Source of the DNA: Pocillopora damicornis
Lineage: Eukaryota
Assembly (NCBI RefSeq): GCF_003704095.1
Contig: NW_020847079.1
Span: forward strand, 186,001-250,000
Direction: 5' to 3'
DNA: 64,000 nucleotides
Shown: positions 146-33,600 of the stretch, piece after piece
Numbering within the stretch: the first letter of the stretch is position 1
Layout: each line of letters opens with the position of its first letter
Notes under the pieces: model-generated
The model's input: the letters and a program-made list of their open reading frames with translations, nothing else
Databases searched by the model: none
Told to the model about the DNA's origin: nothing
Made by a program: the position numbers and the translations under genes

Positions 146-1179
146 CATATTGTTCTGAGTTTCTGCTTCTTCAATCTCATTACTGACCAACTCTTTATCT
201 TTCTGGAGTTCATCAATATGCTCTTGACATTTCTTATGCTCATCCCTAAAAATACAAGGAGACCAAATTGTCACCAGAGATTTGAGGCATTCATTCAGTA
301 CATCTTATTAGTGGTTCTAGTCAAACTTTCAAATAAAATGATATTCATTCATATTTGTTTACTACATTACCTGAACTGTGAAACAAGGTAGTCTTTCTCC
401 AACACTTGTTCACTCAGTTGGTCAAGATGACGTCTCAAAGCTAAACGCTGTAATTTCTCCTGTAAGAAGAATGTTTTTAGCGATATTTAAGGTACATGTA
501 GATCCCAATAATCACATGTATAATAAAACAACAACAAAAACAAATTCAGAATGAATGTGATAGAGTTTAACTCAATTCTAACTCTTCAAACAGAATTTCA
601 GTTAAGGAACAAGGCTGTAAAACATTTGTGACAGTCTGCTGAGAGAGTTCAAATACCAGCCAGTTCAACCAATTTCCAATCACATGCTTTTACCCTTTAC
701 ATACTAACATCAGTATCCATATCTGCCATACTCTTCTCTTTACATTGTCTTTGGTACTGACACAGAGAATTTGTTTAACAATCAAAGCTCTTTTGGTTGT
801 TCATCATTTCCCTTATTCTCATGAACTTAATAAATGACTCAACACTAAAACCGTAAGGAGAAATCAATTGATAGTCCCTCTTAGGGTTTAACCCTTTAAC
901 TCCTAAGATCTCATTAGTAATTCTCCTTACTGTCTGCCAAATGATTCTCNNNNNNNNNNNNNNNNNNNNNNNNNNNNNNNNNNNNNNNNNNNNNNNNNNN
1001 NNNNNNNNNNNNNNNNNNNNNNNNNNNNNNNNNNNNNNNNNNNNNNNNNTTTCTTCTACTTCACCATTGGTCACATTGCCGCTGGCATCGGCATTCACAG
1101 TTTCATCATTCGAGGTGTAAATACTATGATGTTCCATGGTGTCTTCAATAGCCTTTTTCTCTAAATCCACCACTTCCAT
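146..1179 (-). CDS. 5' part of an unidentified coiled-coil protein gene (runs off the left edge; interrupted by N gap 950-1049)
   Basis: ATG at 1179 (MEVVDLEKKAIEDTMEHH...). Downstream AG/GT-bounded exons at ~371-459 (EKLQRLALRRHLDQLSEQVLEKDYLVSQFR) and ~146-245 (DEHKKCQEHIDELQKDKELVSNEIEEAETQN) join in phase and have a heptad-like E/K/L/Q composition. Family not recognised. Confidence 0.6.
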
Positions 1180-1848
1180 GTCATTGACGGCAACTGGGCG
1201 CCTTTTAAAATCGTTTTTGTACCAATGTAGCGTTTTGTTTCTTTCCTAGACCTCGAAGTAACGTTAAATACTGGATTCTGCAAAATTAGATGGTCAATCT
1301 GTCTCCTATGACAACCATTCGCTTGTGTACATAGGATAAAAACTACACTGTCAATTACGATTTAAGACACGTCATAGAGTTCCTAAAATCACAATTCGAT
1401 AGAATATATTACAGCAATATGACGAGATCCACATTGTAAATACTGCTTGCGGGTATTCCTAAACCAAAGTCTGTACGGTCAAATTTTTGGACAGATTCAA
1501 GGACGTCTAAAACCTTGGCTACAAGCACAACTCTTGTCTAGAAATACCACAAAAAAACGTTGACGTTTCCATCATGAAACCAGAAAGGTTGGTCAACAGA
1601 GCATAGCCAGCTCAACAGGTAAAAACGCTGTTATTTACGAGCTGTCAGCCTACAACTCGAAATCACCCGCTAAACAACAAACGGCGGCCATGACAGCGGT
1701 TTGCTAAGTGACCACGGCTGTAGTGGACAGGATAGCTTAGTAGCCACGGCTTTTGAACAAACATGGCGGAATTTTTGAGCCATTAGCCTGAGAGTCTCTT
1801 TTCCTTCTCAAGTTTGGTTATCATCCAACTGTTTGGCAAAAATAAGTG

Positions 1849-4178
1849 ATGCTTAGACAAAGCTTCTTTCGGCTAAGGAGTCCTGAGACATACCTCAAAG
1901 TAGCTTGGCCAGGAAATTTAAAATTAGCGACTAATTACGAGGTAAACCTGTCTTATGTAATCGTTGGAGACCAAGTGTCACTGGCAACTTCTCTACAACG
2001 GGTTAATCACGTAATTATGCTTTATTGCAATATGAATATCGTTATCGGATGAAACTTATTACGGCGCCATCGATCAGACATGCCATCTTTTCCTCGTCGA
2101 GTTTTTGATGTGCCAAATATATTTAAACTGGATAAATGACCTGCTAGTACACTAACAACAAATTTTTATTTATGGTGTCGATCTCACTAAGAATTAAAAT
2201 TTCTTCGTGTTTAGGTGAAGCCAGTAAACAATTTCTCTCATGAAAGAACATTAATATCCTCTTCAAGACATGCATTGACACGTGCTGAACCAAAAGGTGC
2301 TCAAAAACCAGCTGAAGATGTTTTCAAGCGATCGTCAAAGAGGGGTCCTGTAACATGGGCTTCACTTGCTCTCTGTGCACTGGCTGGTGGGGGGCTGCTG
2401 CTCTATGTTCGTCATCTCAAAGAGGAAAAGGAACGAAGTAAGAAAATTAATTACACCATTAGCTAATTTTCCATTATGCTTGTCAGAGGTATAGCTGATG
2501 GTGGGAGTGAGAATAATCCCCCATCTTTGGGAAAAAAAACAAGAAAAGAAAAAAAAAATCTCACAACTGGAAAGCTCATCCTACAAGGAAATACAAAAAT
2601 GTCAGCCTTTTTGCTGCACATGGAGTCCCTATGTTTTTTTAAGTCTAAAGCCACCACACTGGGTAGAATATAAAAGGTAAACCTTTAGAGAAACCTTGGG
2701 GTAAACTTTGATGGATTAGAACCACTTAAAGGAAGAGTTGGAATATTTATGGTAATTTAATGACTATAATGACAGGAGTAAGATCTGAATGCAAAGCAAG
2801 TCAGTAAAAGGGAACTCAAGGAGAGCTTTTACATGGTTCATACATTGTCCCTGCATGCAAACTTGTCTACTACAAAGTTAGAAAATTCTGATCACTGAAA
2901 GTGTCATCCTTTTAGGATAAAGAGAAAGTGCCTTTTAGCTCAGTCAATGAAGAAATAAGGAAATGTTTCTGTTAACTTTGAGTTAAAGCTAAACTGAAAT
3001 CTTGATTTATTTAAATGTAGTGAAAGAGAAGCAGCAGAAGAGATCCATGGGGAAAGTTGCACTTGGTGGACCCTTCAGTCTCATAGATCATAACGGACAA
3101 GCTGTTACAGACAAGGATTTTCATGGCAAATGGATATTGCTCTACTTTGGTTTCACTCACTGTCCTGATATTTGCCCTGATGAATTAGAAAAAATGGGAA
3201 AAGCAATTGACCTTGTTGGTAAGCTGAACCAAAGCATGAGCACTGTTAACCTTTCACCCTCCATGAGTGACCAAGAGAGAATTTCTCCTTGTGATATCAA
3301 TAAAATATCAAGCATAGAAGTGACAAGAATGAATTAAAATATCAATTAAGGAATTATTAGGTGATCCAATACCAATTCTCCAAACTAACGTCATGAGAAT
3401 TGTATGGGAGATAGTAAGGAGGATTACTTGTGAGATCTTGGGAGTTAAGGGGGTTAACAGTGTATGTGTATATGTATATGTGCCAGACATCTTTTTAATT
3501 TAGTGGCATCTTGTGATCATGTTACTCATTCCATTTCTCTCCAAAGCAGTGCATTTATCAGCACATAAGCATGCTTTGCTGTCTACAATAAAGATTCCTC
3601 ATACCAACCCAACTTAATTAGTTTCCCTTTTTTTTTTTTTAAATCAGGAAAGACATCTCTTGGTCCAACTCCCAAGTTCCAATTAGCAATTCTCCACTCA
3701 CTTAACACAGTGACTATACAATTTCTTGTAAATTAGAGGGGAGATATTTTAGCGTACATCATGATGACATCCTCTGGCTGTTAAGCCTCTCTATTCCCAT
3801 AACCTATTTGCAAGATAACATTCTGGAATCACAAGGAAAAGTTAAATGTTGATCAAATCTGGGAATGAAAGGGTTAAACAGCATTTGTGTATTTGAAAAT
3901 AAAATGATAGTTCTTTGGCAAATTCTAGAACTGAAGTAACTTGATTGACCCTTTAACTCCCATGAGTGACCAAGACAGAATTTCTCCTTACAGTATCAAT
4001 ACAGAATCAAGCAGACTAGTGAGGAGAACATAGAAGAAAATTCAAGTAGGGGACTACAAGTTGATCTAATACCAAATTCTCCAAATTGAAATCATAAGTA
4101 TTTTATGGCAGATAGTATTGCTAATGAGATCTTGGGAGTCAAAGGGTTAAGAGTGTGTAGTTTCAGATTACAAAATTA

Positions 4179-4211
<33 letters not shown>

Positions 4212-5265
4212 GTTACTGTTTACATTTCTTCATTGTGTCCTTTGATGTTTATAGATGAGAGCAAAGATGCACTTGGTGCAGAGCTTCAACCCCTGTTCAT
4301 AACAGTTGATCCATCTCGGGATGATGTCAAGGCTGTGAAGCAGTATGTCCAAGGTGGATCTGATTATACATTTTATGGCAATTCCTTAGAAAATTTTTTT
4401 TTAAATTCTGTTTAAGATACCCACTGCTTTGTCCCTTATTAAATACATGTTCCTCCTGTTATAGAGTTTCATCCACGTCTCCTTGGTCTAACGGGATCAC
4501 CTGAACAAGTCCAACAAGTTTGCAAGGCTTACAGGGTATACTTCAGTGCAGGACCAGCAGATGAAGACAACGACTACATTGTATGTGAGCCATGTAATGG
4601 AAAAAGTATTTAAAACACAAACTTTGACTAGAATTCTGTAATGTCCTTGGTTGCCCTTTGACCCCTTCAAGTGACCAGAATCTAATTTCTCCTCACAATA
4701 TCACCCCTGAATCAAACATTTAAGTCACAAGAATAAAGGAAATGATTTTCAACAAAGGAAGCTCTTGATTGTTAGGAGAATTCTCCTTGTTAGCACTGTA
4801 GGAAATGTATGAGAACAGTATGGAGAATATGCACACTGATGATAGGGTGTAAGGGGTAACAGAATTAGATGGTTAACCCTTTAACTCCCAGGATCTGATT
4901 GTTAATATATTCTCCCCTCTTGCTGCGACACATTTCCTTGTTAATTAGTCACAAGAATTTGGTGTTAGATCAACACAACTACCTGATATATTTGAATACT
5001 CTCATTACCTGTTTGGTGGATAGTGGATGGATGTTGTAGGGAGAAGTTAAATGTGAATCACTTCTGGGAGTTAAAGAGTTAAGATGTAGTACAGGTTTAT
5101 TATAATTTATGAATTTTTTTCCAGGTTGATCACACCATTATTCAGTACCTTGTGGATCCTTCAGGAAACTTTGCAGAGTATTTTGGACAAAATAAGACAG
5201 CAGAGGACATTGCTGCAGGGATTGTAAAACACATGATGTCAAACAAATTCAAGCAAAAGAAATAA
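1849..5265 (+). CDS. SCO1: SCO1/SCO2 cytochrome c oxidase copper chaperone, 6 exons (1849-1941, 2215-2437, 3021-3218, 4255-4353, 4465-4580, 5125-5265)
   Basis: The spliced product has an Arg-rich mitochondrial-type leader, one TM ([22 protein letters not shown]), [12 protein letters not shown], the diagnostic [15 protein letters not shown] CxxxC motif, [17 protein letters not shown] and DYIVDH. All introns are GT-AG with matching phases. Confidence 0.95.
3246..3457. mobile_element. ~210-bp piggyBac-like MITE (representative copy; similar copies at ~888-949, 3948-4150, 4660-4860, 4873-5082, 9378-9588, 13387-13585, 15300-15511, 17578-17790, 18119-18330, 20325-20530, 21752-21968, 26260-26471, 33340-33550, 33826-34028, 38452-38660, 45068-45275, 54232-54444, 55342-55551)
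   Basis: Terminal inverted repeats TTAACCCTTT...AAAGGGTTAA (TTAA target plus CCC end, typical of piggyBac). Shared internal blocks such as GAGTGACCAAGACAGAATTTCTCC and ACCAAATTCTC. No coding capacity. Confidence 0.85.
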
Positions 5266-5551
5266 TTTTGCACAAAAATTTGTTCACATGAAGTACATCG
5301 AGTCAGGATGATCTGCAGGCACCACTGGAATTGACCCAGGCAAAAATTCGTCAAAAAGGCGGTCTAAAAACATTTTTGTTAAATTAATCTGTCAATCATT
5401 TTATTTACCTGTGTCTTATCTAACTTCATACTGTGCTGCTGATGTTTTTAACCAGGTCATTACACTAACAATATTGCAGTTGAATCCTGTCAATATGAAC
5501 ATTAAACTTAAAATCAAGTCGTTGTTTAAGATTTGGTAGAAATTATAATAG

Positions 5552-5682
5552 ATGCTGTGGCTTAGTGGTTAGAATGGTGGACTGCAAATCTAAAGTTCCA
5601 GGTTCAGACCTTGGCCTGGATCACTATGCAGTGTTCTTAAGGAAGACATTAAACTCTAAGTGTGTCTCTCAATCCAGGAGAG
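5552..5682 (+). mobile_element. tRNA-derived SINE (degenerate); a second copy on the - strand at ~53095-53220
   Basis: Pol III A box TGGCTTAGTGG and B box GGTTCAGACC, followed by a non-tRNA body (GTGTTCTTAAGGAAGACATTAAACTCT...TCTCTCAATCCAGGAG). No proper acceptor stem. Confidence 0.7.
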
Positions 5683-5879
5683 TGAGACATTTTCAAGTGA
5701 GTGTCAAAAATAACCAAGGATTGCTTTTGCTTTACTTACCTCTGTGATTGGTTCAGAAAAGCTTTACTACCCTCCTGTCCAATCAGAAACAAACCTAACA
5801 CCAGTCATGTGAATAAAGGGGGTAACTTTCCATGTGGTGGTGCATCAGTGAAAGAGTGTAACAAGAAATTTTGGTATGA

Positions 5880-6043
5880 TCAACTTAGTTGATGATGCAA
5901 ATTGGCCTCCGTAAAGAGTTTCAAAGCTGGCATTTTGAGGGTTAGCCCTTCATGAGAGAGAATGATGTAGGGCTAACACTCAAAATGTCAGCTTCGAAAC
6001 TCTTTACAGAGGCCAATTTAAGTTATCAACTCTGTTGATAATA
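5880..6043. repeat. Head-to-head inverted pair of degenerate hammerhead-bearing short repeats
   Basis: 5880-5955 is the approximate reverse complement of 5963-6043. Both halves resemble the element at 58881 (GGGCTAAC.CTC.AAA.GTCAGCTT...GGCCAATTTA...ATCAAC). Confidence 0.65.
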
Positions 6044-6248
6044 CTGACACCAATCATGACTTGGTCACTCATATTTTCTTATATTTCTTAACAGAAACAA
6101 AACTAACACCAATCATGACTTGGTCAGTCAAATTTTCTTATGCATCAGGCAGTTAGCTTGCTTTTACTTAAAGCACAGGTAGGCTGTCAGGTAATTATTT
6201 CCTTCCTTCTAATTGGCCACAGTGATTACTTCCAATCAGTTTTGTTTT

Positions 6249-6530
6249 AGAGCAGTTTTCAATTGATTGTCGTGAAACCAAAACCAAGTAATAACAACAG
6301 CCAATCATAACACTCTGCCTTGCATCATCATTTGCCATTAAGGATTTAAACTAATAGCAGCAAATTACCAAAAGCACAGGAAAATGCAGGTGACCAAGTC
6401 ACAATTGGTTTTTGCTTGGTGTCTGATTGGTGTAGTGCATGGCGCAAGTTTTCTAGACCAACCACAGAAGGAGGTAAAACAAAATCAAAGGAATTGCACA
6501 TTACTTTTGACATTCAATCGAGAATCACCA
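6249..6530. mobile_element. ~280-bp MITE family with GAGCAGTTTTCAATTGA-type ends (other copies ~50149-50430, ~60510-60770)
   Basis: The copy at 50149-50430 has inverted ends GGGCACTTTTCAATTGAG...CTCAATTGAAAATTGCTCC. Shared internal motifs ACCAAAACCAA, GATTGGTTT and CCAATCACAG recur across copies. Confidence 0.6.
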
Positions 6531-7882: not shown

Positions 7883-9271
7883 TTACCTCAGTTGTCCAAG
7901 GCAATAATTTGTTATAGACCATTTCTTTCCACTGATAATTGCCTGAATAAGCATCACAGGCATCTGAAAATGATTTAACATAAAGAACGGCACAGGATCA
8001 CTTGCATCCAGGACTGCATCTTTTCCATTCTGTAAAACCTGCATAAACTCTCCAAAACCTTGCTGGAAAAGCCCAACTTTGGCAATTTCATTGTATAACC
8101 AGTAGACATGGGTTGAAGAAGGGGAGGGCTGCACCGGAACCTCAAGCTGAAATTGAGTATCCATGGCCCCACGAATAGCTCTTTCAAGATCTGGCTGCAT
8201 GTCATAAGAGACAATAGCAGAATGGAGCCTTGGGTTGCACTCAATGCAGTAAACCTCTCTTGTTTCCTCATCTTCCAGGAAGTCAAAACAAACACAACCA
8301 GTGAGTTGCTTGGCTTTGCAAAACTCCTCTACCCACTGTTTGATTGCAGGGTGTTGGACAACATCATAATCAATTTGCATTGGCGAACAAGGGCATACTT
8401 GAAAGACTTGGAGACATCCATTCACAACAATGGCATTGGCTGCGAATTCCTTTCCCTTTATGAACTGGTGGATCAGGTAGGGATTATTACTGTTCACCTT
8501 TCTCTCATAGCAAGCAATATATTTATCAAATTCTTTTGCACTGCTTGGTATGCAAGTGAAGTTTAATCGGTCTTCAGAATATGGCATCAATGGTTTCAGA
8601 AAGTAGTGGCCTTTTGAGAAAAGACCCTTCTTAGCCATTTCCTGGACTTCACTTGTACTATCCACTTCCTTAAAGTATGGTACTTGAAGACCAAGCTCTT
8701 GGCATTCCTTTAGAAAAAGAACCTTATTGTCAAGAATAGTGGTCAACTTTGGGTCATCAAAAACAAGACATTTTATCATAGGATTTACTTCTGCCAGACG
8801 CTGTTTAATGATTGTGTCTGCTACAGCTGTCTTTGTGTGGCTAACTGGAATATACCAATCAATATTCTCAGCTTTTGCAACATTGATCATTCCATTGATA
8901 TAATCTTCTTTTCCACTGCAGGAATTTAAATTTGGCACTGTGTAGAATTTTGAAATGAAGTGAGACCATTGAACAGCAGAGCACCAAAAGTCTTCTGTGT
9001 CAGCCACAATAACTCTGTGACCAGCTTTTCCCAAGGTCTTGGCAAGGTGAAGGCCTTTGGTGTGAGCAACACCAGATACCAGCACAGTCTGCCTGAGAGC
9101 TTCTGTAATCTGTTGATCTTGCCTGGTCCTCCTTCCAAACAACCAACAGCTAACAGTGAACAGAAGACAGAATGGTGTCGTAGAGAGAAGCACCAATAAG
9201 TAGACAACAGCTTTCATTCTGTACCAGAGTTGGCCAAATTGCACAACAGGTTTTTGTCCAGCACTCCCCAT
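7883..9271 (-). CDS. mysC: ATP-grasp ligase, MysC (mycosporine-glycine synthase)-like, 462 aa, intronless CDS
   Basis: N-terminal hydrophobic segment, then TVLVSGVAHTKGLHLAKTLGKAGHRVIVADTEDFW, FYTVP, ENIDWYIPVS, LDNK..F, YFLKPL, QFIKGKEF, LTGCVCFDFLED, YCIECNPRLHSAI, YWLYNE and GKDAVLDASDPVPFFMLNHFQMP. These are collinear with cyanobacterial MysC (Ava_3856 type) as I recall them. Confidence 0.88.
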   Translation of the reverse strand: MGSAGQKPVVQFGQLWYRMKAVVYLLVLLSTTPFCLLFTVSCWLFGRRTRQDQQITEALRQTVLVSGVAHTKGLHLAKTLGKAGHRVIVADTEDFWCSAVQWSHFISKFYTVPNLNSCSGKEDYINGMINVAKAENIDWYIPVSHTKTAVADTIIKQRLAEVNPMIKCLVFDDPKLTTILDNKVLFLKECQELGLQVPYFKEVDSTSEVQEMAKKGLFSKGHYFLKPLMPYSEDRLNFTCIPSSAKEFDKYIACYERKVNSNNPYLIHQFIKGKEFAANAIVVNGCLQVFQVCPCSPMQIDYDVVQHPAIKQWVEEFCKAKQLTGCVCFDFLEDEETREVYCIECNPRLHSAIVSYDMQPDLERAIRGAMDTQFQLEVPVQPSPSSTHVYWLYNEIAKVGLFQQGFGEFMQVLQNGKDAVLDASDPVPFFMLNHFQMPVMLIQAIISGKKWSITNYCLGQLR

Positions 9272-9317
9272 TTGGTATCACAACTTGAGTTAAAATTTAT
9301 TGAAGACCAGGGGATAT

Positions 9318-10543
9318 CTAATAAGAACAGACAAAGTTGTCAGATGGAGTTTCAGTTTGATTCATCACTCATATCTCTTAACCCTTTCATCCCTAAGAGT
9401 GACCAGCATCTAATTTCTCCCTACAAAATCACCCCTGAATCTGACATTGAGTTAATGAGAAAAACAGAAATGATCACCAACTAAAGAGCCTCTTAATTGT
9501 TAAACAAATTTTCCCTTTCAGCACCTTAAGAAATTTATAGAGAACAGTATGGAGAATATGCAAAATGATGTTAGGGAGTAAAGGGTCAATTCATTTACAA
9601 GGAGATGTACAGTAATGCCAATAATCCAAACAGAAAGGGGAAAGACAGGTGGAACATTCTCTAAAAGTACCATAAACACCCTAGTAAGTTCCTTAGGGAC
9701 TTATCAATCTCAGGGGCCTCCAAAAAGTTGGCTCACTGGAGAGGTCTAGGGGGTTTATTGGAGAGGGGGACTCATGAATGATGAAGGGGAGGAGGGCACT
9801 TATCAAAAAATTATTTCAGGCCAAAATACTGTACACTATATTTCTTACAAATTATTACCCAAATTTAGAATGCTCAGTAAGCATTTCTTTGATTGAAAAC
9901 TGGCCCAAATGGATAAAGATCCCACTACTAAAAACACAAGTCAGTTTTTGTTCTAGGGTGAGGGGGAGGGTGGAGCTGATGAGACTCAAGGGGGGTTTTG
10001 CGCCACCAGTTGATCACAATGAATCGAATACATATTTTTCTTTCTAGAAATATAAACCCTACGCTTTTCAAAATTTGCAAAATTATTTCCGTGGTGTTCA
10101 CTGAGTTACATAATCGTTAAAATTTCATCTAAGTGGAAAAGAGTACTGCACACCTCAAAGGATGATTCTATCCTAATTCGCCAAGAGACGAGAAATCGAA
10201 ATCAAATTGGTACACTAATAAATTAAAACTAGGGTTTCTTGCGCTGAGTTTAGTGACACCCGCCGGAATAGCATACTTTGATACCTCATTACCTTGCTTA
10301 CATAACGGAATAACGGCATATTTTATACCGAAGTACACGTCTAAGAACAGAGAACAACAGCAATCTGGAATGAGCGCCGCAAAAGTATAACACCCAAATC
10401 AATACACTTCTTTCGTGGATTAACACAAGCTATCAAGAGGATTTCGAAGATTATGTGGAGATCTAATGTAAATGAAGTGGACAACAACGCGTATAAAATT
10501 ATGTGATCTTACATTACATTTCAGCGGAATAACAAATGCTTAC
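9318..10543 (-). other. Probable 5'-UTR intron of the mysC-like gene
   Basis: Minus-strand acceptor TTTGTCTGTTCTTATTAG ends 46 nt upstream of the ATG. Strong donor CAG|GTAAGC at 10543, with an alternative AAG|GTAATG at 10292. The sequence turns CpG-rich and promoter-like from ~10200 to 11500. Confidence 0.5.
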
Positions 10544-10909
10544 CTGTTCGATCAAGACACTTGTACGAAGAAAGACAGCCGCAGAAAATAGTAATCTGGA
10601 AGAAGATCCTCAAAAAATATATATCGCACAGGTTTACTCCTGTTTTGTACAAGACTTTATCGAATAATCCGTTGCAACGCGAAGTACAGTGTAAGTAACA
10701 AACACATGCTCCTGGCGTGACTTTGGCGTGACTGTTCTAGCTGGAGTTAGGGTCTCAGAAGGGTTCATCAATTAGCCAACAAATTCACCCTATAGCTTAG
10801 GGACTACTCTATTCTTCTCTTCTCTCTGACAGAGGGCTATCGTCATCTTTAGAAACTATTTTCGGCGGCCAATTTACGTTATCAAGAGAAACTTACCCAG
10901 CTACCCCCA

Positions 10910-10940: not shown

Positions 10941-11548
10941 AGTCACGCTTTGCTATGTCTGTCCCAAGCCTCTCTCATTGCTGCACTACTAAAGTCAAAA
11001 TGGCGGTCATGCATGCTTGCTTTGAAGAAACTGCATTTGCATTTGAATCATTTCTCTCATGTGGTGTCGAACACCTGCTTAGTTACGAGAGCTTGACGAC
11101 ACTGTTGATTACCTTAACAATGGAAGGGAAACTCTCAGAGATTAACAATCAATTTCGTAGGCAAGTAAACAAAAGGGTCCTCAGAATCGTTCAAGGATGT
11201 CTGCGTGACAATGCAAAACCACAACGAAAGTCGACAAGTTGTCTTAACTGTCAGTTCTGTGTACACAAGGCCGAGCTTAAAGAGATAAACGGCTTTATTA
11301 TATGAACATCGCGTGGTTGAATGGGATAAATGCTGAGTACGAAAGAGCTGAAAAAGGCTACTCCTGAATTGAAGTTTATTTAGTTATTTTAATTTCAATC
11401 ATCTCAGTCTTATCAGTTATTGGTGTATTTTCAATGGATTCACGCGATTTTTCTGACGAGCTTCTGGAAATTTCAATACTCGAAACTAATAAGAATCTTT
11501 ACCGTCTGCTTGAAAAGTGTTTAAACATGATGATTTCGTGGATTTAAC

Positions 11549-14500
11549 ATGTCTTATCGCGGACGAGGATACAGTAACCAACATCAACAACGTCGAGCGT
11601 TGGCTAATGGCTTGAGACAAGCACCGCCTTTTCCAGCCGATAGCAACAGCGATCTGGAAGACAACGATCATGTCAGATTTCCAGAAATTGACAGAGATAT
11701 CAGGGATAGAAAACCGCAAAAGAGAGATGGTAAACTTAACTACAATAGTCGCATTCCATTGCCAGCAAGGAGCAACGAAGGTGCAGCGAACGAGCTCACC
11801 GCAGGCGAGCCCAGAAACTTCAGAACACGAAATTTTAACTCATCAAATCCTGAATTTCCTAATAATTCTACCTCAGATCCAGCAGCTAGAGACCAGCGAA
11901 AAAGTAGAGTAAATGCTGTCAAGAAAATCACTTTCTATAGAAATGGGGACAAACATTTCAAAGGCGTCGAAATGGTCGTGACTAGGCAACGCTACCGATC
12001 TTTCGAGACTATTGTAGATGACCTTTCGAAGGCAATTCCACTTCCGTACGGAGTAAGAAATGTGTTCTCGCCAGGTGGAAGTGTGATTACAACTATCAAC
12101 CAGCTAGAGGATGGAAGGCATTATATCTGTTCTTCGGGAGACCAACTTATTAAAAATGTGAGCTACGGCGAAAAAATGAAGGATAAGCCTCGGTCGCTCG
12201 ATGTGGAAAGCTTCTCTGGAGGATCTTCGCATTCTTCCTCTAGCAGGGATTCAAAGTTTGGCGGGAATTCCGATAGAAATCCGAAACCGCGCGTTATAAC
12301 TATCGTGAGTGAGCGCGACAGAAACAAGAAATGCAAAATTTTGTTGAACACGAAAACCGTCAAAAGTTTTGATGCTGTTTTAAAGGACATTTCTGACATG
12401 TTGAAATACTCTGTCAAGGAACTGCGCAATGTAGAAGGTATCAAGGTGAGGCTTAAGTTAATTTTCGTTCATTCGGCAAGCTTCGCTGATTTCCTACGAA
12501 AACAAAATCATCACTGCCGCGTGAAAGATAGATTAACCGTTAAGAGTTACTCTTTTTCGTTCCGATTTAACGGAACTCTTGAGCGATTTTGATTTTCGTT
12601 TATTTTTTAGGTCATGGGTAGAATTTTTTTTTCGAAATCACAGAAAAAGGCTACGTGCAATAGGGAATTTAACCAAAATTATCCTAAACGTTGAAACCAG
12701 ATCGGTCTAATTTCGTTGACAAATATTGTCTACAAGACTTAATAGCCACCTGTCTGCTTTTGCACAATGCATCAAGCACCGTCCTCGAATAGATAGATAA
12801 ATGGACATTAAATTGGGTAAATCAAATTATGCTCTCTCTTATCTTGCCATATTTTTCCAAATTATTTTTTAACTATTTGATGAAAGCAGTTAGTCGGTCA
12901 AGAACTGAGGCAGGCGGGCCTTTTGACATTGTGGAATAGAGATGGCTGCTTATTATGAAATTACTTGTTTTTAATTATTAATAGTATTTGGTTGCTAGTT
13001 TTAATGCATGTTTTTTAGCACAAGTTTATTATTGATGTCTAGAAGATGAAGTGAATTTTGCAAAATTGATCTCTTACCTTGGAAAATTTTGATGATCTTT
13101 TGAAACATAATTATTATTATTATAAGTGGATAATTTCTTGAGGGAGTGTAATTAAATTAAATAAATTTGCATAATTCACCCCTGGGAGAGCTGGTATACC
13201 AGTGCAAAGAAGGGAGATTGTAATCTTTACAAAAAAGATGTGTGGAAATGGATAAACATTTAGTGGGAAAGGATTTAACTCAGTGACTCAGGGATTTCAA
13301 AACAAGCAGATGACTGCTGGAGTTCCACCAGCTACTTGATAACATTTTGCTGGTTACTCTAGTCAAAATAGTTACCTTTTGGCCCTTAACTCTTTAACTC
13401 CCAAGATCTGATTGTTAATTCTCCCCTCTAGCTGTCTCACATTTCCTTGTGAATTAGTTATGAGAACTTGGTGCTAGATCAAGGTAGCAGCTTCTACCTG
13501 ATAAGTTTAAATATTCTCATTACCTGTTTGCTGAATAATGTATAGATATCATAGGAAGAAGTTTAATGTTAATCACTTCTGGGACTAGACTATTGGCACT
13601 ACTTTGATGAAAATCCAGCTCTTTAATGGGCTGACAAACACTATCTGTATGGTCAAACATACCAATTAGTAGAAAGTTGTTTCTTCATGCAAATCTCTTT
13701 GAGTATATTAGTGACACACTGGGCTGCACCTGTGCCTCATTTTGTTCTCACCAGATTTTGACCTAATCTATGATATACTTTGAACAGATGTATGGCACCG
13801 TAGACTTTAATTGTTAAATAGGGTATTCTGTTTTCCAGGTAAAAAGTCTCTCACAGTTATATCGGGATGCTGATACATTTATTGCTAGTAGCACAGAACA
13901 AGGTTCTAAGAGAAACTTGTCTAATCCATCATCTAATAGTAGTAACCATTCAGGATCTCCACCTCAAAGAAATCGTTTTCAAAAGTCCAAGAAGAAACCA
14001 AGGGAAGAATCAACTGGTATGTGGCTCAACACCTTAACTGTAGGCTTCTTACATTTTTACTTAGATGCAGTGAAATAGTATTGAATGTAAAAGTTAGGTT
14101 TGGTCCGTTTCAATTTAGACTCCAAAGGGCATACATGCACTAGTGCAAGTCTTTCGGCATTTTGTCGCAGTTGAAAGGCATGTGAGATACTCTTGACCTT
14201 TTGACCTGTAAGAGTGACTAGCGTCTACTTTCTCTCTACAGTATTACCCCCTGAATCAATTATTAATGTCACAAGAATAAATGAAATGATTACGAACTTA
14301 AGAAGCTCTTGATTGTTGAACAAATTCTCCTTGTCGGCACCATAGGAATATATAGAGAACATTAAGGAGAATATACATACAGGTACTTATGTTCAAGGAT
14401 AATAGATAAAGAAGGGACAACCTTTTCCACATGCTTTGCAAATGTTTTTCACTTGCATTTCACTAAGAAAATTTCATATGCATGTTAAATTTTCATGTGA

Positions 14501-20500: not shown

Positions 20501-23500
20501 CAATCAGATCATGGGAGTTAAAGGGTTAAGTAAGAGTTAGTAACTTTTGTTTGAACCTTTTCACTCCCTTTTCATTCTCCAAACTGTCTGCCACACAATT
20601 CATATGATTTTATACTTACATCGTTTGGAGAATTTGGTATTGGATCAATTTTGGTATTGGATCAATTAATCAACATTTCTAAAATTAGGAAGTACCTCAC
20701 TGAGGAAACTACAGAAATTCTTGTTCATGCATTTGTTAGTTCAAAACTAGATTATTGTAACTCTTTATTGTATGGCCTCCCTAAGCATACAATTAGTAGT
20801 TTGCAGTCTGTGCAAAACACGGCTGCTCGTATCATTACTTTAACCAAGAAATCTGATTATATCACCCCTGTATTGATTCAACTGCATTGGTTACCTGTTC
20901 ACTTTCAGATTCTTTTTAAAGTTTTATTGTTAGTTTATAAGGCCCTAAATGGTATGGCACCATTATATATCACGGAATTACTTAGTTATCATACATGTTC
21001 ACGTATGTTACGCTCTACTGATCAAAAATTTCTGGTGGTTCCAAAGTCAAGACTTAAAACATACAGAGACAAGGCCTTTTCCGTTGCTGCACCTAAACTC
21101 TGGAATGAGCTGCCATTAGATCTTAGAAGTTTAGACTACACTTGACTATCCCTACTACTCTCTTTTCTCAAGAGTGAAAATGGGTATTAGTGCTCTTTTG
21201 ATGAAAGCTGATGAAATGCAGGGCAGAAGGGGAGAGGGTGCAAAACTTGTGATGGACTAAAATCTCTCCAGAGGAATTAAACAAACTGTGCGTAGTGCTG
21301 TAGAACTAGGATGAGCACCAGATGGATAGGCCTTTCAGCTTGTGTTTAGATTAAACCTTTAGATTAATTACCTTTTTCAGACATGTGGACTATCAACAGT
21401 TGAAGATCTCAAGCACTGAATGAATTATTAATTTTGATCTTCTTTATTCTAGTTTCCTGTCAAATCAGCAGCTTTCTATTCCACTGGTGATGTGTTAGCT
21501 TTGGGAACAACTGTGGGAAGGTATAAGTTAGAGTAAAATTAGACTTTTTGGTTGTTATTTAGAAACTGCTTAATCACCAAATTTTCAACTTTTTCAGGTG
21601 GATTGTGGTGTCGTGTGAATCAGGTATGCACATTGCTTCATTCCAAGATGGAACAGACCCTCTACCTGATCTGGAATATGCTAAAGGTATGGTTACTTTT
21701 CACCTGACTAAAACATATCATGGCTGCACCAATCCACGTGAGTTTATTGCTTTAAACCTTTAGCTACCAGAAGTGATCAACATGCAACTTCTTCCTATAA
21801 TATCCATATATTATCCAGTAAACAAGTAATGAGAATACTCAAACTTATCAGGTAGGAGTTGTTATCATGATCTAACACCAAATACTCATACAGTAGCAGA
21901 TTTACAGGGATATGTGTAGCAGCTAGAGGAGAGAATTATCAATCAGGTCTTGGGAGTTAGAGGGTTAAGAACTTGATGTTTGGAGAAGTTTCTTAGTTTG
22001 TTTTGTGACAGAGGCTGGTTTAATTTCTAAGCTCTTTAACTAGGAATAGGATTGACTTAATTCTCTGCTCACTAGTATTTTATGGACTAAGATAAATTTT
22101 TATGTAGTGTAAGTGTAATTAACTGAAAGCACTATTCTTAATCATCTTCAGTAGAACAACATTATTTCAATAACTCTTTTTGGATATGAAATGAGTGAGA
22201 AATGTGAGGTCATGGAACTTCAGTAATGATCCTGAATGATAAAACATGTTTAACTTAATAAATAAAAGTAAAACTGTTTGACTTTTTATCAGATGGAGAG
22301 CACATTGCTATTGCCTCTCAGGATGGCAATATTTCTGTTCATGCAGTCTATGATGAGGGTACAACTTACAGGAGAGTTGGCACATGTTCGGTAAGTCCAT
22401 ACACACTCAAGTCAGATGTAATTTATCATCACCAACTGAGTTGATGATATAAATTGGCCACATAAAGAGTTTTGAAGCTGACATTTCAAGCTTTAGCCCT
22501 TCATCAGACCAACTGGTGAAGGGCAAGTTGACCAAAAAGATGTTCAAAATTTCAATTTGTAGTTAGCTGTAAATTATAGTTGTTATTTTCTGAAAGAAAA
22601 GCATTTGAATTTTATTGGGAAGAATCCAATCATCTCTCTCTCTCTCTCCCAACAGGGGCATAGCGAACCAATTATGTTTTTGGATTGGTCTCTTGATGGC
22701 TGCTTCCTTCAGAGTTTGTCTGTTGACTACGAACACATTGTTTGTAAGTGAATCAAGTTTATCTATAATATACACCTCACCTTTACCATGGTGGTGTAAA
22801 CTCCCACCATGGTGTTTCAAACTTTTGCTGTGGCAATTAAAAATGTTTTTCTGTTCCTCCTCTTACCAATGCGAAAGTGAATGTTGCTCAGCATAAATCT
22901 TGTGGAATTAAGGAAACTTCATCTGCCAGTCCTTCCTAAAGTGACTGTCCAATTAACCTTCATTCAAGTGGATAAAGAAAATGAAAATAATATCACTGAG
23001 GGAATATCAGCTTGATTGAATAACAAAGAAATTTACCATACTCAGTTGGGAGAATTAACTTTATACCTTGGTTAATGTGCTTCTAATCCTCTTTTTCAGG
23101 GGAGATTGGTGGATTTCTGAGAGAAGAGTCACAAGATGTTATCCGCGATATTGACTGGTCCACAAGAAATGTCATGTTAGGATATGATGTAGCAGGTATG
23201 AAATGGGGAAAGTGGGTGCTGGATGAAAAATGTGAAATTGTGAGAAAAATTTTACCATTTTCCTAGCCTTCATATTAGACTACACAGATGGTAAGAACAG
23301 GAGGTCTTAGGTCAAAGCCAATCCAATGTCTCAGGTAAAGTGTATAACTTTGGAAAGGCAAAACGACAAAGATATTTATCAATAACATAGTTCAGTTTAC
23401 TGCTCTGAAAATGTGACAAAATGCTAGTACAAACCATTAATAAAGAGAATTATTGTAATGTACAAAGATCCAAGGGATGATACCTCTTTTAAGTTTATGA

Positions 23501-26804: not shown

Positions 26805-28827
26805 TCATGAGTAATGGAATTGCTGCATTAAGGATAAACTGCCATTTGTCATTGTATATACATTGACAATTTTCTGATTGTTTGACCACAGTCTGAACTG
26901 AATGGCAGAGAAAACTGCAATAGTTGACAAGAAGAATGCCAAAACAGCTTGCCAGGGACGTGCACCAGCACGCTGTTCCTGAAGAAACTGCATAATTTTA
27001 TCCCAGGAATCTTCTTGCTCTGACTTCCTCTGACGACTGACTTGGCGAACCAAGCGATTCCACAAGTAATCAACATCAACATTACCAAGAGAGATGATTG
27101 GCAGCATTAAAAAGAAGAGTAACAGAAATGAATGCACATATTGAAAAAAGGAAAGTGGATCAGTCTTCACAATCCACACATGCAACTCCAGAAAAAGACA
27201 GACTGTGCACAAAATTAGGTTCAGTGCAATCCAACCTGATGAAAATTCACGGAATATATGGTAGGCATCAAATGCTTCAGCCAAACGAGCTCTGCACAAA
27301 TCAATATTGTCAATATTTTCTTGAAGAAACTTTGTTACCAGTTTGATTTCCGACTCATAGCTGCAACGCAGAAGGTACACTATGTAGCAAAATCCACCAA
27401 AATTAATGTAACCTTCTACAATGACAAAAAAGTGAAGAGGAACTAAGGTTGTTAGACTAGAAAGTGTTTCATTAGCAACCATGGGCGAGACCAGCTCTGG
27501 GTCAAAATATGGTGCTGTTATCTTCAGACACTGGGTGCCCATCACAACAACACTCCCAAGAAAGAGGGCATAACCAGCAAACTGCTTATCCTTCATGTTG
27601 ACAAATCTCATCCGGTGGACAAGGAACTCTACAGCCAATGCATTTGACCAGCTCCCCATGAATACACTTGGCCATGTGGCGTGGACAACAGAAATGAAAC
27701 ATATGAATGGACCAATGTAGAGCAACAGCTTCATTCCAATCCAAGCAAGCACATGAACAATATCACAGCCAGAATTTGCATAGCTTGCAATCAACAGCAC
27801 AATGTTAGCCAATGTGACACCAGTTATAAGCAGGAGCCACATCAGTGAAAGAAATCCACTACCACAGTGGTTCAGAAATGATGAGCCTATTTCCTTGTCA
27901 GTGACAACAGTTGGCACACCCTTGTAATCCCAAGTCAGGCTGTTACACACCTTACACTGATTATCTGTGTAGTAGAAGGCAGTGTGTGTCTTTGACTTTG
28001 CACATCTGTTGCATAGTTTGGAACGAACCAGAAAACCTGAAGGGAGAAAGATAAATCAGATATAACACAACGGTATCAAAATGAACATGGAACCCATGAC
28101 ATGACTGACAAGGCATTCTGCTGTATTCAGAGCCCACAAGAATGATTAATAATTCATATGTTAACCTTAAGTGTATAACTATGTTGGTAATAATCCCTTT
28201 AACTCCCAAAAATGATTTACAAGCAACTTCTCCCTCACTAATCTATATTATCCTGAAAACAAAGTGATTAGAATAGAAATATTTGACGTTGGAAGGACAC
28301 TATTTTTTGGATAATATTACATTCTCTCAACTAATCTACAGGATATTATTATTGAAGGTAATAGGAGAATTACTAGTCAGATGACAATTAACAAGTAAAG
28401 GAAACCAAATAACAGATATTTTTAAGAAACAGGAAACATGAATGTACAGCTCAAAAAATTTAATTTCGTATGTTTAAATGGAATGACACTTATCAGGAAA
28501 CATCTTTGGTATTTTATGCCAAAAATCTGAGATCAGAGAAACTTGGCAAAAATAAAGTTTGAAGAATGCAATAGAATACCAATAGCATTAATTATAAAAA
28601 CAAGAAATATTTCATAAATATTTCAAGAAGAAGGAAACTTAAACCTTACTATGGAAGGCTTTAAAGGTAAAAAGGGAAGTTATGCCTTTACCAGAATGAT
28701 AAAGCCCCAATGTCTTCAAGTAGAACCACAATAATACTGGCCATCTTTCACCCACTTCAGTTGCTCTCAAAATGGGAACACTCACAGACTCACTACTGCC
28801 ACGGTGAATATCCAAAGCGCTGACCAT
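26805..28827 (-). CDS. Seven-TM membrane protein, gustatory-receptor-like / 7TM ion channel (7TMIC) candidate; 2 coding exons (28827-28692, 28036-26805), ~455 aa
   Basis: A phase-1 GT-AG intron joins ...LKTLGLYHS-G-FLVRSKLCNRCAK...CKVCNSLTWD in frame with the 381-aa ORF. There are seven hydrophobic segments, a long helical TM4-TM5 loop, and a C-terminal STIAVFSAIQF resembling the GR-family TYhhhhhQF motif. The gene call is strong; the family call is inference. Confidence 0.7.
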
Positions 28828-30478: not shown

Positions 30479-30691
30479 CACACGAGCGTGATCCTGGCTT
30501 ACGTACCTGCACGCATCCGCGCGTAAACTCGCATGATACCCGCACGAGCCGCGCGCCGTTCGCGCATATTAACGCCATACCCACAAATCCTAGCGGAGTT
30601 CAGTTTCAGTTTACACGGCAGTTCTGTATAACAGATTCGAACGATTTTTAGAAATTCTGTTCCGATCTGTCGCTACAACAAACGTGTTATC

Positions 30692-33600
30692 ATGATCAAA
30701 GTCATAGCGTCGGTTGTCTGCGCCTTTGCAGCGATGCTGATGATCATTTTGAGCTTAGCCACGACCTACTGGCTGCAGTGGGTGATAGTTTCTCACAACA
30801 GAAACATCACTCATTACCGAGGTTTATTCAGACATTGTTGGGAATCAAGGGATAACGTTACAGACGAACTCATAAGCGCGGAATCTGACTGTTCCAATGA
30901 TAAGCACACGCTTCAAGATGTACTGAAATCAGGTGAGCAGTTGATTTGCCAACGTTTGAAAATGGTTACTAGTGTGAAGTAGGCGTCATACAGGTTTTTC
31001 TAGTCACTTGTGTTTTACTCCACAACCGAAAGGAGCAGCGATCGACGAAACTATCTGTCAGTGACGATTTCTTTCATTTGATTTCTGTGAGATAGCCAGA
31101 AAAAAGTTACTAATAATTGTAACTAGTGAACCACCGCGCAGTAATTTCTAAAATCATACGTATGTAAAATATTATGCGTGAAGTGAAGCGAACATAAATG
31201 AAAGTATGCATTGTAATCAAGCAGAACGCTACGTAAAGATTCTTTTCAAATTTCCATCGGCACACCCTGTGACTTCGTTCTTGGGAAAGCGAAGCTCTGA
31301 GAGAGCACGCGTTAATACTAAACAATGATCAAAGTCATAACAAGCTTTGTGAGCTGTTTAGCTGCAATTCTGTTGGGAATTTTGGCCCTTGCCACCGACT
31401 TTTGGCTAGTGTGGTGGAAAGAAGCGAAGGAAATCGGAGGTGTACAATACCACCATGAAGGCCTGTTTCAAACTTGTTCTGAATCCTCGATCAACAACAC
31501 TGTTGTTGCCGCAGATAGCTGCACTAAATTACACGATTTGGGAAGACCAGGTACATCTTTTTCTGATTTGGTATTTATAGTATGTCGAAGAAAAAATATT
31601 TGCGTGTCTTGTTTACATTTGTTTTGTTCATTACCTGACTGACTGTTAGGACATAAAATTTGCTTATAGACTCTCAACTTGACAAAGATCTCTGTAACAT
31701 CAAATTGACTTTACAGACTAACTTTTGTCAATGACAAATTTCTATTAACGTGGAGTTTAGAGATTGATTACGGCTCGAAACTTTAACTCATACCAATTAC
31801 AACCAGTTGTTTTGAATAATTATTCTAATTATGAACAGTTCTTATACATATTCTAAAGGTTTTTGGTTCTTTGTAACAATCTTTGTTGTTCAAAAAAACT
31901 TTTATGTTTCGAATTTTAGTTTAATGCCACGAGCTACCTTTAAATTATTGCCTAAAGCTTCTATATAACACATTAAACATACTCCTTTCTTAGAATACAA
32001 TCATGTTCTGGAATTTTCCGCAAATAGCGGTGATTCTTGTCAATAAATAATCTAAAGGTACAAGAGATATGATTTGCAACAGGAGGTTTTTAATTTTTCT
32101 GTTTCCTGGGACTTTCAAGTCAGTGTTGCTAAATTGATCAAGTTTTAATTTGCCACTAGCACTGGGTGAAGCATTTGAGTAAAGGCAGCACAGCTTGTAA
32201 CTGCTAAGTTAAATATTTATAGGCTTCTAGTATGATTTTAAGAAATCTTGAAAAAACAGCATAATCCGTTTTAAGTCCAGTTTTATGTGGTTTAAGTGTA
32301 ACATGCCTTTTCTTCGGTAACTTGTCCAGAAATTTTATTTGATTGAACAATTGTCCAATGCACTTTATTGTTCTTCTACAGAAGCAAATGATCTTGTTTT
32401 AATTGAATGTGTCAGTGTGTAATTTTCAGAAACTTCAGGGTTGATTTTTTGCCTAAAATATTTTATGGAGGAAGCACATATGCATTTATGTTAAAAATAA
32501 ACAGAGATATGATTGTTACAGAATCCTGCAATTGCCTACAACTATAAAGAAAGTAGTATACATCAAGTGATGCCATAACAAATAATATTCTGGCCTGAAC
32601 ATAAACAGTGATAGTGCATAGTATTACATATAATGCATTTCGATTTAACAGGAGCCTCAGTTTGCACTAAGACATGCTCTGACATTTGTGTAAAAACCTT
32701 TGTTATATTTTCCAAGAAGCAAACAAATTACAGACAGTGAAGTTCAAGGAAAACTGACCAACAACAAATGCTCATGCAAATAATGTGCAAGGAAATATAT
32801 TAAATATATTTTCCTTTTATTTGGAGGCTAGCTGATATCTTTATTATTCTAGAAACAGTCTTGTGCCTCTTGAGACCGAATATTTAAAAATGTTTTCCTG
32901 TCAAAAACATTCACTGTCTTATAATTAATCAGGAAAGGAGATTTTCCCTTCTTCTGAAACAACAGCAAACATTTTGTAATCTTGAAGTACATTTTGAACA
33001 GAGATCTCCCTGGTTTTGGATATGTTGTTTGAAAATAATAGTGAAAAAAAAGACTGGACATATCCCAGTTTTAGCTCGGACATATTCAGTCACATGCCAC
33101 TTGATAGCAACCCAACACAAATGTAGTTGATATTTTTTTGATTTACGAAATTGTGTTATGATTTACAAAATCTGTTTTATCATTTTATGATTCTGTGTAA
33201 ATAAATTTGTCTATGGGGGTCCATTAGGTTGACTGTTGACTCTGAAATTTAAAAAAAATCAAGCAGGTAGGCAGAGCAGAATTCAACCTTAGGACCTTTA
33301 TCTACTCCACACCACCATCATGTCCTGCCGTCATAAGCTTTAACCCTTTAACTCTCAAGATCCAAGTAGTTATTCTTCCAACTGACTGCTAGTTGTTTCC
33401 TTGTAAATTATACAGGAGAATTCTATGTTACATTAAGATAACAACCTCTTGCTGACAAGCTTTGCTATTCTCACAACCTGTTTTCAAGATCGTGTATTGG
33501 AATGGCAATGAGAAGTTAAAAGTTAATCAATTCTAAGAATTAAAGGGTTGACAAACATGGTTATCCATAGGAAGGGACGGAAATATTTACTGGCTCTCTA

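What the first reader, a model, noticed from the sequence alone, without database searches (positions are those of the whole stretch)
7883..10543. Stand-alone, host-encoded MysC-like sunscreen ligase: intronless CDS inside an animal gene neighbourhood
Seen: a complete 462-aa intronless ATP-grasp ORF between intron-rich animal genes (SCO, DCX-EMAP), with a likely 5'-UTR intron that contains a host MITE. That setting argues for real integration rather than symbiont contamination. Established: MysC condenses 4-deoxygadusol with glycine to give mycosporine-glycine, usually clustered with mysA/mysB and mysD or an NRPS in microbes, and homologues are known from anthozoan genomes. No mysA/B/D/E is visible in this 64 kb, so the pathway is dispersed. 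Inference: this is an old horizontal acquisition domesticated by gaining a UTR intron. The N-terminal loop I recall as GGKMTKAL in cyanobacteria reads GVAHTKGL here, which might change the amine substrate towards cnidarian-specific mycosporines.
Basis: partly seen in the sequence, partly recalled or inferred. Interest (0 to 1): 0.72.

Follow-up and report, generated by a model that had tools for sequence, protein, structure and literature searches.

The report
Coral's own MysC sunscreen ligase gene
This stony coral carries, in its own genome and spliced into its own mRNA, an intact gene of the MysC family that likely makes the UV sunscreen mycosporine-glycine; such coral genes were reported in 2011, but the same animal branch also holds a sequence labelled as a copepod's, although copepods are thought unable to make these sunscreens.

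Summary
There is a 462-aa intronless ORF (7883-9271, minus strand), found once in the genome. Its 5'-UTR intron (9318-10543) is spliced out in RNA contigs and contains a high-copy host MITE. The SCO / MysC / DCX-EML order and the UTR intron recur in other stony corals, and dN/dS is 0.12, so this is a host gene. The protein is 34% identical to the MysC of a Nostoc mysABCD cluster and keeps the family's invariant residues. Anthozoan MysC homologues have been in print since 2011, so the core finding is known. The HTKGL loop is not cnidarian-specific: Nematostella lacks it and a Calanus-labelled clade has it. No donor is resolved: grouping with sampled cyanobacteria is rejected, and vertical descent with fungi is not. 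The remaining interest is in side leads. A 26-member plankton clade with one Calanus glacialis label sits inside the animal MysC branch. Elsewhere in this genome are two mysA-like genes without a fused methyltransferase and several MysD-like copies. No enzyme activity was tested.

The parts
7883..9271 (-). MysC-family ATP-grasp ligase CDS, 462 aa plus stop, no intron (P0001)
   Evidence: RNA contigs cover it unbroken; 34% to Nostoc cluster MysC over 441 columns
9050..9073 (-). GVAHTKGL loop (residues 67-74) between strand 62-66 and helix 71-82 of the pre-ATP-grasp domain
   Evidence: K72 in 94% of 299 MysC-like rows
8228..8242 (-). ECNPR motif (344-348); E-x-N as predicted Mg ligands and R348 near the phosphate site (roles recalled from the ATP-grasp family)
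   Evidence: 96-99% conserved in 299 rows
9272..9317 (-). untranslated start of exon 2
9318..10543 (-). 5'-UTR intron, 1226 nt, GT-AG
   Evidence: homologous intron in L035/L044 (2177 nt) and L037 (1018 nt)
9378..9589 (.). high-copy host MITE with terminal inverted repeats, inside the intron
10544..10906 (-). untranslated exon 1 (5' end approximate); holds short upstream ORFs of 12-44 codons
6480..7882 (-). 3' UTR (end approximate, from contigs), ending about 60 nt from the SCO transcript contigs
1818..6422 (+). neighbouring SCO gene, spliced, tail-to-tail with mysC
10953..12447 (+). first exon of the neighbouring DCX-EML gene, head-to-head with mysC; RNA contigs of the two genes begin about 50 nt apart

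Best explanation
This is a single, spliced, host-encoded gene of the MysC family, kept between SCO and DCX-EML in several stony corals, and its enzyme likely uses ATP to join glycine to 4-deoxygadusol, giving the sunscreen mycosporine-glycine. Shown here: gene structure, transcription, synteny, purifying selection, family placement and intact conserved residues. Inferred from Anabaena MysC (PMC10666671, passages): the enzyme phosphorylates the C3 oxygen of the ring, then the amine displaces phosphate. Inferred: the ring comes from one of two host mysA-like cyclases on other contigs; methylation would be done by an unlinked O-methyltransferase (tandem COMT-like genes on C3105 are the only candidates found); the second amino acid would be added by the MysD-like genes on C3296. 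The gene belongs to an old animal-wide branch whose source is unresolved.
For: Best plasmid hit is the third gene of a Nostoc mysA-mysB-mysC-(dioxygenase-like)-mysD cluster, 34% over 93%, E 3e-63; the other 11 long hits are at 22-26%. In the 80-row IQ-TREE the protein lies within the MysC-like set, separated from PRK06849-type ligases at 100/99. K72, K183, K226, R235, E275, D330, E344, N346, R348 and H350 match the residues held by 90-97% of 299 MysC-like rows. ESM Atlas top clusters are cyanobacterial ATP-grasp proteins (0.99). dN/dS 0.12 against L035. Both flanks on one genomic contig in L035 and L044. Two DDGS-like genes at 35-36% to Nostoc MysA and MysD-like exons at 37-43% are in the same genome. 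[quoted passage not shown]
Against: No activity was measured here, and none of the passages read reports one for any animal MysC. Both substrate-side loops differ from glycine-using cyanobacterial MysC1: GVAHTKGL for GG/AKMTKAL, and PVSHT for PVCSP/PVSSP. The first loop is closer to the common fungal form GVGMTKGL (6 of 8 positions), and fungal enzymes attach glutaminol (PMC10057719). MysC2/3 show that the family can change amine (PMC10510106, PMC10666671). No dedicated MysB was found: a Nostoc query and PF01596 hit only C3105 (4 and 8 candidates scored), and a 10-sequence MysB profile found nothing in 68 kb and 28 kb around the two mysA-like genes. NCBIfam PRK06849 scores 243.5 bits against a cut-off of 406.
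Confidence: 0.68

Rival explanations
1. Same ring chemistry but another or a broader amine (taurine, serine, glutamine-type, methylamine).
For: Both loops differ from cyanobacterial MysC1, and loop 1 resembles the fungal form. The family has switched amine before (PMC10510106, PMC10057719). The loop sits where PurD/PurK-type enzymes, among the closest folds, bind their non-nucleotide substrate (recalled).
Against: The loop is shared with the Calanus-labelled clade (25 of 26) and absent from Nematostella, so it does not track cnidarians. Mycosporine-taurine is an anemone compound, and the coral methylamine forms are explained in PMC3083659 mainly by later decarboxylation of glycine. The Nematostella-type subclade, with more varied loops, is the better candidate for a switch (inference).
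Confidence: 0.17
2. A salvage or desmethyl role: the host has no true MysB, so this ligase mainly re-aminates 4-deoxygadusol from symbionts, diet or breakdown of other mycosporines, or works on the unmethylated ring.
For: No MysB fused to or near either mysA-like gene. The only O-methyltransferase hits resemble general COMT-type proteins. The Acropora DHQS-like model is listed with the DHQ_synthase domain alone in PMC3640398 Table 1.
Against: The assembly is gappy (an N run lies upstream of the C897 gene) and the genome search scores only the best candidates. The C3105 genes are of the same Pfam family as MysB and are duplicated. Reviews state that a fused gene exists in Acropora and Nematostella.
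Confidence: 0.1
3. An ATP-grasp ligase that has left the mycosporine pathway and acts on an unrelated substrate.
For: It is unlinked to the other mys genes and only 30-34% identical to cyanobacterial MysC.
Against: MysC-wide residues are kept; mysA-like and MysD-like genes are in the same genome; no solved structure of another ligase matches by sequence at E <= 1.
Confidence: 0.04
4. Symbiont or bacterial contamination of the assembly.
For: The intronless CDS and the microbial gene family.
Against: Spliced UTR intron with a host MITE; the same neighbours in independent coral contigs; GC3 0.40 against 0.43 for the DCX exon; the tree follows coral relationships, with Oculina nearer than Acropora and Montipora.
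Confidence: 0.01
5. On origin only: the gene was inherited vertically from an opisthokont ancestor and lost in most animals, instead of arriving by one old horizontal transfer (my odds: old transfer into an early animal about 0.6, vertical about 0.25, transfers between animal groups about 0.15).
For: Animal-like plus fungal rows as one clade are not rejected (p-AU 0.082). The animal branch is not nested in any microbial group.
Against: The free tree is 26 log units better and places fungi near bacteria (86/97). The nearest sister is the Heterosigma/Fibrocapsa group, at 87/92 only. The coral CDS has no intron.
Confidence: 0.25

Closest known systems
MysC (Ava_3856) of Anabaena variabilis and Nostoc mysABCD clusters; here BBD63067.1 of Nostoc sp. 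HK-01 plasmid (L015)
   Same: Length and layout (hydrophobic N-terminal helix, pre-ATP-grasp domain, ATP-grasp core), 34% identity over 441 columns, ECNPR-x-H motif and the other invariant residues.
   Different: Stand-alone spliced eukaryotic gene; loops GVAHTKGL and PVSHT instead of GAKMTKAL and PVCSP; ends NYCLGQLR without the ELGGD tail; not in a clade with the sampled cyanobacteria. Ava_3856 itself was not fetched.
ATP-grasp homologue of the shinorine pathway reported in Acropora digitifera and Nematostella vectensis (Shinzato et al. 2011, seen through PMC10901607, PMC4083563, PMC3640398)
   Same: Orthologue or close paralogue: 63% to A. digitifera XP_015768220.1, 78% to Oculina XP_078374313.1, 39% to the Nematostella protein P0062.
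   Different: I could not check which gene model the 2011 paper used. This genome shows no mysA-O-methyltransferase fusion, has MysD-like genes, and its best NRPS-like gene has exons of an adenylation-carrier-reductase layout, not the A-T-TE of MysE. The Nematostella protein falls in a separate subclade (95/97).
Fungal ATPG of the Phaffia rhodozyma DDGS-OMT-ATPG cluster (PMC10057719)
   Same: Same family; similar first loop (GV-x-x-TKGL).
   Different: 25% identity to the Meira protein, different second loop (SCSGV), product mycosporine-glutaminol, clustered genes.
PRK06849-type ATP-grasp proteins beside FabH-like genes (Bacillus, L016)
   Same: Related fold and ECNPR motif; NCBIfam NF005315 hit at 243.5 bits.
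   Different: Below the cut-off of 406; 25% identity; no N-terminal helix; separated at 100/99 in the tree.

Membership tests
MysC (mycosporine ATP-grasp ligase) | ATP-grasp fold with pre-ATP-grasp domain | tested here: met
MysC (mycosporine ATP-grasp ligase) | Full-length similarity to a MysC defined by cluster context, above other ATP-grasp ligases | tested here: met
   34% over 93% to the Nostoc cluster gene; the other 11 long plasmid hits 22-26%
MysC (mycosporine ATP-grasp ligase) | Family-wide conserved residues intact | tested here: met
   All 35 columns conserved in at least 85% of 299 rows match the query; 99 of those rows are of the query's own branch
MysC (mycosporine ATP-grasp ligase) | Groups with MysC against PRK06849-type ligases | tested here: met
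   100/99 in the 80-row tree
MysC (mycosporine ATP-grasp ligase) | mysA in the same genome | tested here: met
   two DDGS-like genes, C897 and C3735
MysC (mycosporine ATP-grasp ligase) | mysB in the same genome | tested here: inconclusive
   only COMT-like tandem genes on C3105; gappy assembly
MysC (mycosporine ATP-grasp ligase) | Ligates an amine to 4-deoxygadusol with ATP | not testable with these tools
   needs an enzyme assay
MysC1 (glycine-specific subtype) | Groups with cyanobacterial MysC1 and has the GG/AKMTKAL loop | tested here: not met
   this lowers subtype membership, not the chance that it uses glycine
Clustered mys operon | mysC adjacent to mysA/mysB/mysD | tested here: not met
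   none in the window or the 10 kb before it; the others are on different contigs
PRK06849 equivalog (NF005315) | Score above the curated cut-off | tested here: not met
   243.5 against 406 bits

The most novel reading that the evidence does not exclude
Animal MysC is not confined to anthozoans. The coral gene heads an old animal-wide branch that includes a diverse, intron-bearing clade encoded by calanoid copepods, so copepods, which dominate ocean zooplankton and are held to get mycosporines only from food or gut bacteria, make or re-make their own sunscreen. That would explain reports of accumulation on mycosporine-free diets. The evidence is one species label (EukProt Calanus glacialis, P0176) in a 26-row clade; I put copepod origin of the clade at about 0.6, and own synthesis needs mysA/mysB too, which I could not test.
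Probability: 0.4. Interest if true: 0.78.

Novelty: new member of a known kind. Interest (0 to 1): 0.38.

Why it matters
Whether coral sunscreens come from the animal or its algae is still argued. This locus is a clean, single-copy, expressed target for the first assay or knock-down of an animal MysC. The gene itself is not a surprise. The surrounding data change two details of the published picture: this coral shows MysD-like genes and no mysA-methyltransferase fusion. They also raise a testable lead that copepods encode MysC, against the statement that these genes occur only in anthozoans among animals (PMC3640398, abstract) and that copepods cannot synthesize these compounds (PMC12306673, PMC7073964, passages).

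Tried and rejected
A possible splice donor at the stop (GAG|GTAAC): RNA contigs run through it, and coral relatives all end in GQLR, so it was rejected. N-terminal extension from exon 1: blocked by an in-frame stop; only short upstream ORFs. The 101-codon ORF at 11000-11305 in the DCX-EML leader: differences are even across codon positions (15/14/16, 15/15/18, 17/19/16), with no Pfam hit and an Atlas score of 0.79, so it was rejected as a protein. PDB by sequence: no match at E <= 1; no MysC entry appeared among the listed fold matches, so the amine site could not be mapped. Linkage of mysD to mysA on C897: only one decayed exon with a stop and a frameshift, so not an intact cluster. Cnidarian-type rows as one clade without the Calanus clade: neither shown nor rejected (p-AU 0.37). 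Naming the plankton clade: 30 clusters were looked up; among the 7 of that clade only one held a species label; the 6 plankton loci of the animal branch are short, transcript-like and without neighbours. A genome-wide search with a MysB profile could not be run, so a divergent MysB stays open. No earlier finding of this scan matched by sequence, by place or by the full word list. No long reads or raw reads were available, so expression level, UV induction and transcript ends are not shown. No complex prediction was run.

Full report
Observation. The minus strand holds a 462-aa ORF from ATG 9271 to TAA 7883, with an in-frame stop 9 nt before the ATG. It is found once in G000. Pfam gives ATP-grasp_3 just over its cut-off. 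The AlphaFold model is confident (pLDDT 91.8, pTM 0.90) and matches biotin carboxylase, PylC, PurK and PurD folds. The intron 9318-10543 has canonical ends. Of 7 RNA runs laid, 4 show the junction itself (X10; X2, X5, X12; studies P1, P2, P5) and 3 stop at 9317 and run on. Run X19, of unrecorded kind, passes through the intron. All are contigs, so level and ends of the RNA are not shown. The element at 9378-9589 has inverted ends and 3785 candidate copies, of which 40 were scored and gave 41 matches. The transcript lies tail-to-tail with SCO and head-to-head with DCX-EML, whose contigs begin about 50 nt from exon 1; a shared two-way promoter is an inference.

Host gene or contaminant. The metagenome scan returned 38 loci; I examined the 20 of the animal branch (L034-L053) for neighbours. 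Fourteen are coral-like at 60-76% identity. L035 and L044 carry SCO exons, mysC and the DCX exon on one genomic contig in the same order. L040 has DCX, L041 and L046 have SCO, and L037, L038 and L043 have both on transcript-like contigs; the remaining six (2.3-3.3 kb) show neither. These loci may stand for only a few species. The UTR intron is present in L035/L044 (2177 nt) and L037 (1018 nt); in L037 and the query the acceptor lies 90 and 91 nt before the same Trp codon (counted). dN/dS against L035 is 0.12. Named relatives are Oculina 78%, Acropora 63-64%, Montipora 62% and Nematostella 39%. Contamination is excluded.

Family. Among 72,556 plasmids the best hit is the gene after mysA and mysB in a Nostoc sp. 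HK-01 cluster that also holds mysD (34% over 93%, E 3e-63); the other 11 long hits score 22-26%. I aligned 302 of 325 collected sequences (those covering at least 330 profile positions). All 35 columns conserved in at least 85% of the 299 MysC-like rows match the query, including K72, K183, K226, R235, E275, D330 and ECNPR-x-H; their roles in ATP and Mg binding are recalled from the ATP-grasp family. An 80-row subset picked by hand was run in IQ-TREE with LG+G4, without the mixture model, which is more prone to long-branch pull. The query lies in a coral clade (11 rows, 100/100) inside an animal-like clade (36 rows, 100/100), apart from PRK06849-type ligases (100/99).

How it likely works. For Anabaena MysC, 18O labelling showed that the ring's C3 oxygen is phosphorylated and glycine then attacks (PMC10666671, passages; the original paper is not held). 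I infer the same for this protein. Two mysA-like genes with introns lie on C897 and C3735 (35-36% to Nostoc MysA). MysD-like exons occur in at least three copies on the gappy contig C3296 (37% N, GC 0.38), and a decayed MysD-like exon lies about 7.5 kb before the C897 mysA. No MysB is fused to or near either mysA. The only O-methyltransferase hits are tandem, intron-rich genes on C3105 whose one tested exon is closest to general O-methyltransferases, including the COMT-type entry 2avd. The best of 12 adenylation-domain matches (35 candidates) has exons resembling adenylation, carrier and reductase domains, read by eye, unlike the A-T-TE of MysE. So the host has candidates for steps 1, 3 and 4, while step 2 is uncertain.

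The loop. But HTKGL is in 50 of 52 coral-clade rows and 25 of 26 rows of a plankton clade, and Nematostella has GPFSKTL. The motif therefore marks two animal subclades, not cnidarians. Against my own reading, the coral loop shares 6 of 8 positions with the fungal GVGMTKGL, fungal enzymes attach glutaminol (PMC10057719, abstract and passages), and MysC2/3 use ornithine or lysine (PMC10510106, passages). For glycine: mycosporine-glycine dominates many corals, and the coral-typical methylamine and palythine forms are derived from glycine products in PMC3083659 (passages). I give glycine 0.68 and another amine 0.17.

Origin. The animal branch is not nested in any microbial group. Its sister is the Heterosigma/Fibrocapsa group at only 87/92. 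A clade with the 7 named cyanobacterial and actinobacterial rows is rejected (p-AU 0.0016); one with 9 fungal rows is not (0.082). No row was labelled as a dinoflagellate, so a symbiont donor was not tested directly. PMC6001144 (passages) also calls the ATP-grasp phylogeny unclear. An old transfer is plausible but not shown, and the UTR intron cannot be said to have domesticated the gene.

What is known. Homologues of all four Anabaena genes were reported in Acropora digitifera and Nematostella in 2011. I saw this through PMC10901607, PMC4083563, PMC9298759, PMC4878875 and PMC3640398 (passages), not the original. PMC7826186 and PMC10142268 were seen as passages and added no animal data. No supplements were read. 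The gene is thus a new member of a known kind.

The lead that goes further. The cluster of P0056 contains a EukProt protein labelled Calanus glacialis (P0176, 41% to the query). It sits in a clade of 26 rows (support 1.0 in FastTree; 10 rows at 100/99) from short marine contigs; a 97% identical copy occurs in an independent transcript-like contig (L048, 446 of 459). Fragments of this clade begin or end at shared positions with sequence typical of splice sites, which suggests introns (read by eye). GC3 ranges from 0.45 to 0.79 in five loci. Reviews say copepods cannot synthesize these compounds and that own synthesis has not been shown in zooplankton, yet note accumulation without a mycosporine-containing diet, which antibiotics reduce (PMC12306673, PMC7073964, PMC3083659; passages); the antibiotic effect argues for bacteria. 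No held paper contains mycosporine, copepod and MysC together, and the listings showed no such report; subscription journals are mostly missing. The lead rests on one label, and prey, parasites or co-sampled animals remain possible. A second EukProt gene model (P0190, organism not shown) groups with Nematostella. Likewise the listings showed no report of a coral MysD.

Verdict. Observation confirmed; interpretation partly supported. Real, expressed, conserved coral MysC, known in kind. Interest 0.38, carried mainly by the copepod lead (probability 0.4, interest 0.78 if true) and by the MysD-present, MysB-unclear layout of this genome.

Noticed in passing
P0176, P0056 cluster; loci L048-L052: A 26-row plankton clade with one Calanus glacialis label lies inside the animal MysC branch; fragments suggest introns. 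Possible copepod-encoded MysC.
   Followed up: partly
G000:C3296:13600-24630 (L021-L023): [quoted passage not shown]
   Followed up: partly
G000:C897:255884-256158 and 263458-266692: A decayed MysD-like exon (stop and frameshift) about 7.5 kb upstream of a mysA-like gene on the same strand; possibly the trace of a former linkage.
   Followed up: partly
G000:C897:263.5-266.7 kb and C3735:213.6-216.2 kb: Two mysA (DDGS)-like paralogues, 68-80% identical by exon, neither with a fused O-methyltransferase, unlike the fusion stated for Acropora and Nematostella.
   Followed up: partly
G000:C3105:160.9-169.9 kb: Tandem COMT-like O-methyltransferase genes of the same Pfam family as MysB; the only candidates found for the methylation step.
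   Followed up: partly
G000:C985:150.7-164 kb (L080, L081): Intron-rich NRPS-like gene with adenylation, carrier and reductase-like exons; an intronless PAICS-like ORF (recalled resemblance) lies about 3 kb upstream.
   Followed up: partly
window 10995-11295 (+): A 300-nt stretch of the DCX-EML 5' leader is 75-80% conserved in other corals while synonymous sites of mysC are near saturation (dS 1.3); differences are even over codon positions, so a conserved non-coding element beside the shared promoter region.
   Followed up: partly
P0062, P0055, P0061, P0050-P0052, P0070, P0327, P0054, P0190: A second animal subclade (95/97) with varied substrate loops, including Nematostella; a candidate source of anemone mycosporine-taurine (inference).
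   Followed up: no
window 26805-28055 (-): A 416-codon open frame with several hydrophobic stretches and no Pfam match.
   Followed up: no
window 30632-31642 (+): Two claudin/PMP22-like first exons in tandem.
   Followed up: no
window 39160-40248 (+), 47950-48543 (+), 20555-21145 (+): Long open frames without Pfam match; the last looks like a fragment of a LINE reverse-transcriptase C-terminus (recalled).
   Followed up: no
window 775-1245: Assembly gap (run of N) near the window start.
   Followed up: no
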